Shown one piece after another: positions 22,968 through 24,205 of a stretch of DNA of 40,943 nucleotides. Location of the stretch: the sequence record PP384393; one strand, written 5' to 3'. Position numbers and translations under genes: made by a program. Numbering within the stretch: position 1 is the first letter of the stretch; every line of letters starts with the position of its first letter. The stretch is from Teseptimavirus T7. Under the pieces are notes generated by a model, which did no database searches, was not told the DNA's origin, and worked only from the letters and a program-made list of their open reading frames with translations.

Positions 22968-24005
22968 ATGGCTAGCATGACTGGTGGACAGCAAATGGGT
23001 ACTAACCAAGGTAAAGGTGTAGTTGCTGCTGGAGATAAACTGGCGTTGTTCTTGAAGGTATTTGGCGGTGAAGTCCTGACTGCGTTCGCTCGTACCTCCG
23101 TGACCACTTCTCGCCACATGGTACGTTCCATCTCCAGCGGTAAATCCGCTCAGTTCCCTGTTCTGGGTCGCACTCAGGCAGCGTATCTGGCTCCGGGCGA
23201 GAACCTCGACGATAAACGTAAGGACATCAAACACACCGAGAAGGTAATCACCATTGACGGTCTCCTGACGGCTGACGTTCTGATTTATGATATTGAGGAC
23301 GCGATGAACCACTACGACGTTCGCTCTGAGTATACCTCTCAGTTGGGTGAATCTCTGGCGATGGCTGCGGATGGTGCGGTTCTGGCTGAGATTGCCGGTC
23401 TGTGTAACGTGGAAAGCAAATATAATGAGAACATCGAGGGCTTAGGTACTGCTACCGTAATTGAGACCACTCAGAACAAGGCCGCACTTACCGACCAAGT
23501 TGCGCTGGGTAAGGAGATTATTGCGGCTCTGACTAAGGCTCGTGCGGCTCTGACCAAGAACTATGTTCCGGCTGCTGACCGTGTGTTCTACTGTGACCCA
23601 GATAGCTACTCTGCGATTCTGGCAGCACTGATGCCGAACGCAGCAAACTACGCTGCTCTGATTGACCCTGAGAAGGGTTCTATCCGCAACGTTATGGGCT
23701 TTGAGGTTGTAGAAGTTCCGCACCTCACCGCTGGTGGTGCTGGTACCGCTCGTGAGGGCACTACTGGTCAGAAGCACGTCTTCCCTGCCAATAAAGGTGA
23801 GGGTAATGTCAAGGTTGCTAAGGACAACGTTATCGGCCTGTTCATGCACCGCTCTGCGGTAGGTACTGTTAAGCTGCGTGACTTGGCTCTGGAGCGCGCT
23901 CGCCGTGCTAACTTCCAAGCGGACCAGATTATCGCTAAGTACGCAATGGGCCACGGTGGTCTTCGCCCAGAAGCTGCTGGTGCAGTGGTTTTCAAAGTGG
24001 AGTAA
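22968..24005 (+). CDS. 10A: Gp10A major capsid protein
   Basis: 345 aa, MASMTGGQQMG... N-terminus, ends ...VVFKVE. Confidence 0.98.
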   Translation: MASMTGGQQMGTNQGKGVVAAGDKLALFLKVFGGEVLTAFARTSVTTSRHMVRSISSGKSAQFPVLGRTQAAYLAPGENLDDKRKDIKHTEKVITIDGLLTADVLIYDIEDAMNHYDVRSEYTSQLGESLAMAADGAVLAEIAGLCNVESKYNENIEGLGTATVIETTQNKAALTDQVALGKEIIAALTKARAALTKNYVPAADRVFYCDPDSYSAILAALMPNAANYAALIDPEKGSIRNVMGFEVVEVPHLTAGGAGTAREGTTGQKHVFPANKGEGNVKVAKDNVIGLFMHRSAVGTVKLRDLALERARRANFQADQIIAKYAMGHGGLRPEAAGAVVFKVE

Positions 24006-24066
24006 AAACACGTGGCAAACATTCCAAACCGGAGCCATACAGTACAAAGCACTCTTAGGCCTCTGT

Positions 24067-24205
24067 ACCCACGCCGAAACAAGCGCTCATGAGCCCGAAG
24101 TGGCGAGCCCGATCTTCCCCATCGGTGATGTCGGCGATATAGGCGCCAGCAACCGCACCTGTGGCGCCGGTGATGCCGGCCACGATGCGTCCGGCGTAGA
24201 GGATC
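24067..24205 (-). pseudogene. tetA: Internal fragment of pBR322 tetA (tetracycline efflux), antisense, non-functional
   Basis: Reverse complement translates to [46 protein letters not shown]; this is the backbone segment that sits upstream of the T7 promoter in pET-type vectors. Confidence 0.7.

What the first reader, a model, noticed from the sequence alone, without database searches (positions are those of the whole stretch)
23985..24070. Gene 10B frameshift extension replaced, predicting an altered minor capsid protein
In wild-type T7 a -1 ribosomal frameshift near the end of 10A yields 10B, with a roughly 50-residue C-terminal extension. Here the slippery region (ggttttcaaag) is retained, but the sequence after the 10A stop is foreign. 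The -1 frame now reads QSGVKTRGKHSKPEPYSTKHS and stops at a TAG around 24054-24056. The native 10B tail is therefore lost, and a short novel tail may be displayed on a minority of capsid subunits. 10B is known to be dispensable, consistent with this site being used for engineering.
Basis: partly seen in the sequence, partly recalled or inferred. Interest (0 to 1): 0.5.

Follow-up and report, generated by a model that had tools for sequence, protein, structure and literature searches.

The report
Engineered T7: 10B tail replaced
This is a published laboratory-built T7 phage with an mCherry reporter cassette placed right after the capsid gene; a synthetic assembly linker happens to replace the natural frameshift tail of the minor capsid protein, an incidental by-product that is probably made only in trace amounts.

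Summary
Gene 10A (22968-24005) and the G GTT TTC shift site (23987-23993) are intact. The sequence after the 10A stop is foreign. The window is an engineered T7 from the PHEIGES study (Levrier et al., Nat Commun 2024), design T7-mC-g10-o. T7 bases 24005-24105 are replaced by 1106 nt: a 60-nt synthetic "orthogonal overhang" (oho1, 24006-24065), pIVEX/pBR322 backbone, a T7 promoter, mCherry and an unused His tag. The insert rejoins T7 inside the Tphi fragment. The 17 novel residues and their stop codon all lie within oho1. The same linker was used at two other insertion sites, so the tail is accidental and not a display design. Native 10B is lost. The predicted 10B' has 363 aa, with a basic tail. 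It is probably made well below the wild-type ~10%. The native 3' sequence is deleted, and the Tphi CCCC implicated in stimulation now lies 1191 nt from the shift site instead of 186 nt. A comparable construct with foreign 3' sequence frameshifted in <1% of translations. The feature is real but engineered, already published and of low interest.

The parts
22968..24005 (+). Gene 10A, major capsid protein, 345 codons, intact
   Evidence: ORF list. Window 1-24005 is 100% identical to the authors' T7 stock PP384398.
23987..23993 (+). Native -1 frameshift heptamer G GTT TTC of gene 10
   Evidence: Read directly. Conserved in T7, C5, CQ615, RN5i1, fPS16 and AKS2022. Named as the T7 gene 10 shift motif in PMC5009743.
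23993..24058 (+). -1 frame after F342: QSGV (native) + KTRGKHSKPEPYSTKHS (novel) + TAG. The predicted 10B' is 363 aa, 38.5 kDa.
   Evidence: Translation; masses and charge.
24006..24065 (+). Synthetic 60-nt orthogonal assembly overhang 'oho1' (three 20-mers). It encodes the whole novel tail and its stop codon.
   Evidence: Exact match to primers oho1-mcherry-s and gp10-oho1-as in Supplementary Data 2 of PMC10933291. Identical at the cassette's left end in PP384395 and PP384397. No match in plasmids.
24066..24220 (+). Expression-vector backbone (pIVEX2.3d/pET type; a pBR322 tet(C) fragment) carried in with the cassette
   Evidence: Starts with the primer pIVEX2.3d-seq1-s TACCCACGCCGAAACAAGC. 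The plasmid search matches 24066-24305, annotated tet(C).
24221..24305 (+). Added T7 promoter and gene-10 leader/RBS driving mCherry. It duplicates 22882-22965 with one mismatch.
   Evidence: Direct repeat D1, 84 nt, 99% identical. Annotated 'T7 promoter added for mCherry cassette' in sister records.
24306..25016 (+). mCherry coding sequence, 236 codons
   Evidence: ORF; annotated mCherry in PP384395-7.
25017..25111 (+). Vector polylinker with an unused His6 tag, lying after the mCherry stop
   Evidence: Read directly; absent from T7_compile.
25112..25216 (+). Single Tphi-containing fragment, equal to T7 24106-24210. It holds the last 19 codons of native 10B, now disconnected from gene 10, and the terminator CCCC at 25178-25181.
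   Evidence: Alignments. One copy in the window against two in the published design.

Best explanation
The window is the genome of an engineered T7 from the PHEIGES cell-free phage-engineering study, design T7-mC-g10-o, listed by the authors as PP384393. A PCR-made mCherry cassette was joined directly to the 10A stop codon through a 60-nt synthetic orthogonal overhang (oho1). This removed the first 101 nt after the 10A stop, which encode most of the 10B extension. The -1 frame entered at G GUU UUC now runs into oho1 and meets a chance TAG after 17 foreign codons. Shown: native 10B can no longer be made, 10A is untouched, and the only possible frameshift product is a 363-aa 10B' with a short basic tail. 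Inferred: 10B' is made at far below the wild-type ~10%, probably about 1% or less, which is a few copies or none per 415-subunit capsid. The reason is that the shift site has lost its native 3' context. The phage is therefore in effect a 10A-only phage, which T7 tolerates. The altered tail is a harmless by-product of where the cassette was placed.
For: The left arm 1-24005 is 100% identical to the authors' T7 stock, including its A insertion near 1896 and gp9 N227S (Supplementary Data 3). The right arm 25112-40943 is 100% identical to T7 24106-39937. Positions 24006-24065 match the published primer overhang oho1 exactly, and primer gp10-oho1-as places it directly after '...ggttttcaaagtggagtaa'. 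The same cassette with the same oho1 lies after gene 17 and gene 1 in PP384395 and PP384397. [quoted passage not shown] The -1 frame translations of the window and of wild type are. [quoted passage not shown] In the window that CCCC is 1191 nt from the shift site instead of 186 nt, with a promoter and a translated ORF in between. In Slootweg et al. 2006, GGTTTTC at the 10A end followed by foreign sequence frameshifted in <1% of translations, against ~10% in wild type. The predicted local structure in the first 50 nt after the heptamer drops from -18.5 to -8.9 kcal/mol. 10A:10B ratios can vary without harming particles (PMC8365609).
Against: No protein data exist for this phage, so the level of 10B' is inferred and not measured. 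The nature of the T7 3' stimulator is unresolved; the review calls it unexplained. Tphi and its CCCC are still on the same transcript, so some stimulation cannot be excluded. The native and replacement 3' folds are not significantly more stable than shuffled sequence (z -1.7 and -1.4), so the folding comparison is weak evidence. The <1% figure comes from a plasmid construct, not from phage infection. I could not open record PP384393 itself, so identity with it is inferred from the primers, the sister records and the paper's accession table. The window also departs from the published design by 202 bp at the right junction.
Confidence: 0.85

Rival explanations
1. One reading: frameshifting continues at about the wild-type rate (~10%), so roughly 40 of 415 capsid subunits display the new basic 17-residue tail.
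For: The heptamer and all upstream sequence are intact. Tphi with its CCCC is still present on the transcript. The stimulator mechanism is unexplained, so a dependence on distance is not proven.
Against: The native 101 nt 3' of the stop are gone, and Tphi is 1191 nt away instead of 186 nt, beyond a translated ORF. The analogous 10A-GGTTTTC-foreign construct gave <1%. The predicted local 3' structure is weaker.
Confidence: 0.12
2. The short tail is a deliberate peptide-display or tagging design on 10B.
For: The same paper did make gp10B display fusions.
Against: Those fusions used different primers (T7C1-FLAG-as and T7C2-FLAG-s) that encode 3xFLAG. The sequence here is a generic orthogonal assembly overhang, reused unchanged after genes 1 and 17. 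The main text never uses the words '10B' or 'frameshift'; it mentions gp10b only for the separate FLAG display fusions.
Confidence: 0.02
3. A natural T7 variant or natural recombinant with a divergent 10B tail.
For: Natural relatives do differ in the 10B region.
Against: The replacement contains mCherry, a His tag, a pBR322 tet(C) fragment and a published synthetic primer sequence.
Confidence: 0.01

Closest known systems
PHEIGES T7-mC-g10-o (Levrier et al., Nat Commun 2024, PMC10933291; authors' accession PP384393)
   Same: Same T7 stock markers. Same left junction (10A TAA joined to oho1). Same T7p14-mCherry cassette from TACCCACGCC... to ...GGGGTTTTTTG.
   Different: The published primer design predicts oho2, then T7 24069-24105, then a second native Tphi after the cassette, for a total of 41145 bp. 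The window has none of these and is 202 bp shorter, as if the two 105-bp Tphi copies had collapsed into one. I could not read the record itself.
Wild-type T7 gene 10 programmed -1 frameshift (10A/10B)
   Same: Identical 10A, the same G GUU UUC heptamer, and the same first four -1 frame codons (QSGV).
   Different: The -1 ORF has 21 codons instead of 56. The tail is basic (net charge +3.9) instead of acidic (-3.5). The native 3' 101 nt are deleted, and Tphi lies 1191 nt from the shift site instead of 186 nt.
T7_compile (PP384396), sister construct from the same study
   Same: mCherry lies downstream of gene 10 and 10B is altered as a by-product.
   Different: The cassette has no oho1 or vector backbone. 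It is inserted inside the 10B extension after ...TRAANKA, so the -1 frame keeps 43 native residues and then reads [19 protein letters not shown] from the T7 promoter and leader.
p10-EYFP helper plasmid (Slootweg et al. 2006, PMC1635266)
   Same: The 10A end with the natural GGTTTTC is followed directly by foreign sequence in the -1 frame.
   Different: It is a plasmid, not a phage genome. The -1 frame was deliberately fused to EYFP. Frameshifting was measured at <1%.
T7Select display vectors
   Same: They use the surface-exposed C-terminus of gp10B for foreign peptides.
   Different: In T7Select the fusion is in the main reading frame and by design. Here 10A keeps its own stop codon and the foreign tail is reachable only by frameshifting.

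Membership tests
T7-type gene 10 programmed -1 ribosomal frameshift (10A/10B) | Slippery heptamer G GUU UUC near the end of 10A | tested here: met
   23987-23993, identical to T7.
T7-type gene 10 programmed -1 ribosomal frameshift (10A/10B) | A -1 ORF that overlaps the 10A end and extends past its stop to give a ~53-residue longer protein | tested here: not met
   The -1 ORF is open for only 21 codons, so the product is 18 residues longer than 10A. The native extension is deleted.
T7-type gene 10 programmed -1 ribosomal frameshift (10A/10B) | Native 3' stimulatory context: the sequence after the shift site and the Tphi CCCC about 200 nt downstream | tested here: not met
   T7 24005-24105 is deleted. 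The CCCC is at 25178, 1191 nt from the shift site against 186 nt in wild type.
T7-type gene 10 programmed -1 ribosomal frameshift (10A/10B) | A frameshift product actually made and incorporated into capsids | not testable with these tools
   This needs protein analysis of virions.
PHEIGES T7-mC-g10-o construct | Left junction: 10A TAA followed by the oho1 overhang and then the T7p14-mCherry amplicon | tested here: met
   Exact match to primers gp10-oho1-as and oho1-mcherry-s.
PHEIGES T7-mC-g10-o construct | Right junction: cassette Tphi, then oho2, then T7 from AACCTTAACGCC... | tested here: not met
   oho2 is absent from the window at up to 3 mismatches but present in PP384395 and PP384397. 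The window has one Tphi copy where the design has two.
PHEIGES T7-mC-g10-o construct | Background mutations of the authors' T7 stock (A insertion at 1896; gp9 N227S) | tested here: met
   compared with Supplementary Data 3. 100% identical to PP384398 over 1-24005.
T7Select-type capsid display | Foreign peptide fused in the main gene 10 frame, with the frameshift site removed | tested here: not met
   10A keeps its native stop and the heptamer is intact.

The most novel reading that the evidence does not exclude
The construct is an unplanned test of the unexplained long-range stimulator of T7 gene 10 frameshifting. It keeps the heptamer and the upstream context in a real phage infection. It deletes the native 101 nt after the stop and moves Tphi about 1 kb further away, behind a translated ORF. 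If 10B' were still made at ~10%, that would show that neither the proximal 3' sequence nor the proximity of the terminator is needed in the phage context, contrary to the plasmid studies.
Probability: 0.1. Interest if true: 0.3.

Novelty: already known. Interest (0 to 1): 0.08.

Why it matters
It matters little for biology. The feature is an engineering scar in a published reporter phage. 10B is dispensable, and the phage is reported to be viable and fluorescent. The practical value is for annotation and for users of the construct. No native 10B should be annotated or expected. Any minor gp10 band would be ~38.5 kDa with a basic linker-encoded tail. Anyone using this phage for capsid work or display should treat it as essentially 10A-only. 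It could also serve as a cheap test of the 3' requirements of the T7 gene 10 frameshift.

Tried and rejected
1. I suspected the 62 nt after the stop might be a second copy of native T7 sequence, for example the gene 17/17.5 spacer, because PP384395 showed it right after gene 17. A window search found one copy only. The primer table then showed it is the synthetic oho1 overhang.
2. I tried to read the primary frameshift papers (Condron et al. 1991, two papers; Sipley et al. 1991). None is held. Statements about the 3' stimulator therefore rest on the 2016 review and on Slootweg 2006.
3. I compared six natural relatives to see whether a conserved hairpin follows the heptamer. The heptamer and the terminator are conserved. 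The region just 3' differs between the T7 clade and the Berlinvirus-like clade, and there are too few sequences for any covariation test. I did not pursue it.
4. MFE folding of the native and replaced 3' regions shows weaker structure in the window. Neither fold stands out from shuffles, so this is only weak support.
5. Record PP384393 could not be fetched.
6. Stop-codon readthrough of the 10A UAA, and the long open +1 frame (23878-24285), were considered. No signal supports either, so both were dismissed.
7. Two literature searches failed because a term was too short.

Full report
OBSERVATION. Gene 10A occupies 22968-24005, with its TAA at 24003-24005. The T7 shift heptamer G GTT TTC is at 23987-23993. 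Translating the -1 frame from 23993 gives QSGVKTRGKHSKPEPYSTKHS followed by TAG at 24056-24058. Wild-type T7 (V01146) reads [56 protein letters not shown] in this frame. A three-way alignment shows that the window is identical to T7 up to the 10A TAA and unrelated immediately after it.

WHAT THE WINDOW IS. The window is a complete engineered T7 genome.
- Positions 1-24005 are 100% identical to PP384398, the T7 stock of one laboratory. They carry that stock's A insertion near 1896 and its gp9 N227S change.
- Positions 25112-40943 are 100% identical to T7 24106-39937.
- Between them, T7 24005-24105 (101 nt) is replaced by 1106 nt (24006-25111).
- Three sister records (PP384395, PP384396, PP384397: 'recombinant T7_mCg17o', 'T7_compile', 'T7_mCg1o') carry the same mCherry cassette.
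- The source is the PHEIGES paper (Levrier et al., Nat Commun 2024, PMC10933291). It describes inserting a cassette of T7 promoter, RBS, mCherry and T7 terminator downstream of genes 1, 10 and 17, using 'orthogonal oligonucleotides' as assembly overhangs.
- Its accession table lists T7_mC-g10-o as PP384393. That record is not in the searchable collection.

ANATOMY OF THE INSERT.
- 24006-24065 is an exact match to the 60-nt overhang 'oho1' of primers oho1-mcherry-s and gp10-oho1-as. The latter anneals to '...gctggtgcagtggttttcaaagtggagtaa', so the linker was placed by design directly after the 10A stop.
- oho1 is three 20-mers from a published orthogonal primer set (reference 45 of the paper). 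It has no match among plasmids. It is identical at the left end of the cassette in the gene 1 and gene 17 constructs.
- 24066-24220 is vector backbone. It begins with the primer pIVEX2.3d-seq1-s and matches pET-type plasmids annotated tet(C).
- 24221-24305 is a second copy of the phi10 promoter and leader.
- 24306-25016 is mCherry.
- 25017-25111 is polylinker with an unused His6 tag.
- From 25112 the sequence is the Tphi fragment that the vector and T7 share.

CONSEQUENCE FOR 10B. All 17 new codons and the TAG lie within oho1. The first new codon, AAA, straddles the last base of the TAA and the first two bases of oho1. The tail is therefore an accidental reading of a generic assembly linker and not a design. 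The authors' real gp10B display constructs used other primers encoding 3xFLAG. Native 10B cannot be made. Its last 19 codons survive at 25112-25168 but are disconnected from gene 10, lying behind mCherry. Predicted products:
- 10A: 345 aa, 36.5 kDa.
- 10B': 363 aa, 38.5 kDa, with the novel part of the tail having pI 10.2 and net charge +3.9.
- Wild-type 10B: 398 aa, 41.8 kDa, with the corresponding part of the tail having net charge -3.5.

WILL THE FRAMESHIFT STILL HAPPEN? This step is inferred. The heptamer and everything upstream are intact, but the 3' context is not.
- In the window that CCCC (25178-25181) is 1191 nt from the shift site, against 186 nt in wild type. An extra promoter and a translated ORF lie in between.
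- The predicted hairpin that follows the heptamer in wild type (-18.5 kcal/mol over 50 nt) is replaced by weaker structure (-8.9 kcal/mol). Neither fold differs significantly from shuffles, so this is weak evidence.
- The closest experimental precedent is Slootweg et al. 2006 (PMC1635266). They restored GGTTTTC at the 10A end and followed it with foreign EYFP sequence. Frameshifting was <1%, against ~10% in wild-type T7.
- My recollection of Condron et al. 1991 is that deleting the 3' region strongly lowers frameshifting in plasmid constructs. I could not read those papers.
- I therefore expect 10B' at about 1% or less, which is a few copies or none per 415-subunit capsid. The phage would then be functionally 10A-only.
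- T7 tolerates varied 10A:10B ratios (PMC8365609), and the paper reports a viable, fluorescent T7-mC-g10-o.

COMPARISON WITH RELATIVES. Six natural T7-like phages keep GGTTTTC; one of them has GGTTTTTC. All but one, an unverified partial record, keep a Tphi-like terminator with ACCCCTTGGG roughly 200 nt downstream. The sequence just 3' of the stop differs between clades. That is too little data to define the stimulator. It does show that the window's arrangement has no natural counterpart.

DEPARTURE FROM THE PUBLISHED DESIGN (side finding). Primer gp10-oho2-s shows that the design continued after the cassette's Tphi with oho2, then T7 from AACCTTAACGCC (24069) through a second, native Tphi. 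That would give 41145 bp. The window has 40943 bp, lacks oho2 (oho2 is present in both sister constructs) and has a single Tphi fragment. The missing 202 bp are oho2 (60), T7 24069-24105 (37) and one 105-bp Tphi copy. This is what recombination or annealing between the two 105-bp direct repeats would produce. It could have happened during assembly or phage growth, or it could be an assembly collapse of the reads. It does not affect the 10B' tail, which ends inside oho1.

VERDICT. The feature is an engineering by-product in a published reporter phage. The novel tail is linker-encoded, and it is probably expressed only in trace amounts. Novelty: already known. Interest: low.

Noticed in passing
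window 25112-25216 (right junction of the cassette): The window is 202 bp shorter than the published primer design for T7-mC-g10-o (41145 bp expected). The oho2 overhang, T7 24069-24105 and one of two 105-bp Tphi copies are missing, as expected from recombination or annealing between the duplicated Tphi fragments. The sister constructs at genes 1 and 17 keep oho2. It could be a real deletion or a read-assembly collapse.
   Followed up: partly
window 22882-22965 and 24221-24304: There is an 84-nt direct repeat of the phi10 promoter plus gene-10 leader, flanking gene 10A. The copies are 99% identical. The one mismatch (A to C at 24270) removes the XbaI site in the cassette copy. Recombination between the copies would delete 10A, so it should be selected against.
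   Followed up: partly
window 24066-24200, - strand ORF 24055-24183: A fragment of the pBR322 tet(C) tetracycline-resistance gene came into the phage genome with the vector-derived amplicon. It is only a short piece and is presumably non-functional.
   Followed up: partly
window 25017-25111: An unused vector polylinker and His6 tag (PGGGSHHHHHH-type, pIVEX2.3d) lie after the mCherry stop codon and so are not translated. A trivial GTG ORF, 25103-25168, reads [21 protein letters not shown]; its last 18 residues ([18 protein letters not shown]) are the orphaned end of the 10B frame.
   Followed up: no
window ~1896 and 22630: There is a one-base A insertion relative to V01146 in the gene 0.6B/0.7 region, and an A-to-G change giving gp9 N227S. 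The paper's mutation table lists both as present in every phage of the authors' stock, so they are background markers and not engineering.
   Followed up: yes
L001 (PP384396, T7_compile) 2612-2800: The sister construct alters 10B differently. The cassette sits inside the 10B extension, so the -1 frame keeps the native tail up to ...TRAANKA and then reads [19 protein letters not shown] from the added T7 promoter and leader. None of the three sister records checked (PP384395, PP384396, PP384397 region views) annotates a 10B CDS, even where the native 10B is intact (PP384395).
   Followed up: yes
window 24006-25216: No terminator lies between gene 10A and mCherry. mCherry is therefore expected to be transcribed both from the strong phi10 promoter by read-through and from its own added promoter. 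A single Tphi now serves both.
   Followed up: no
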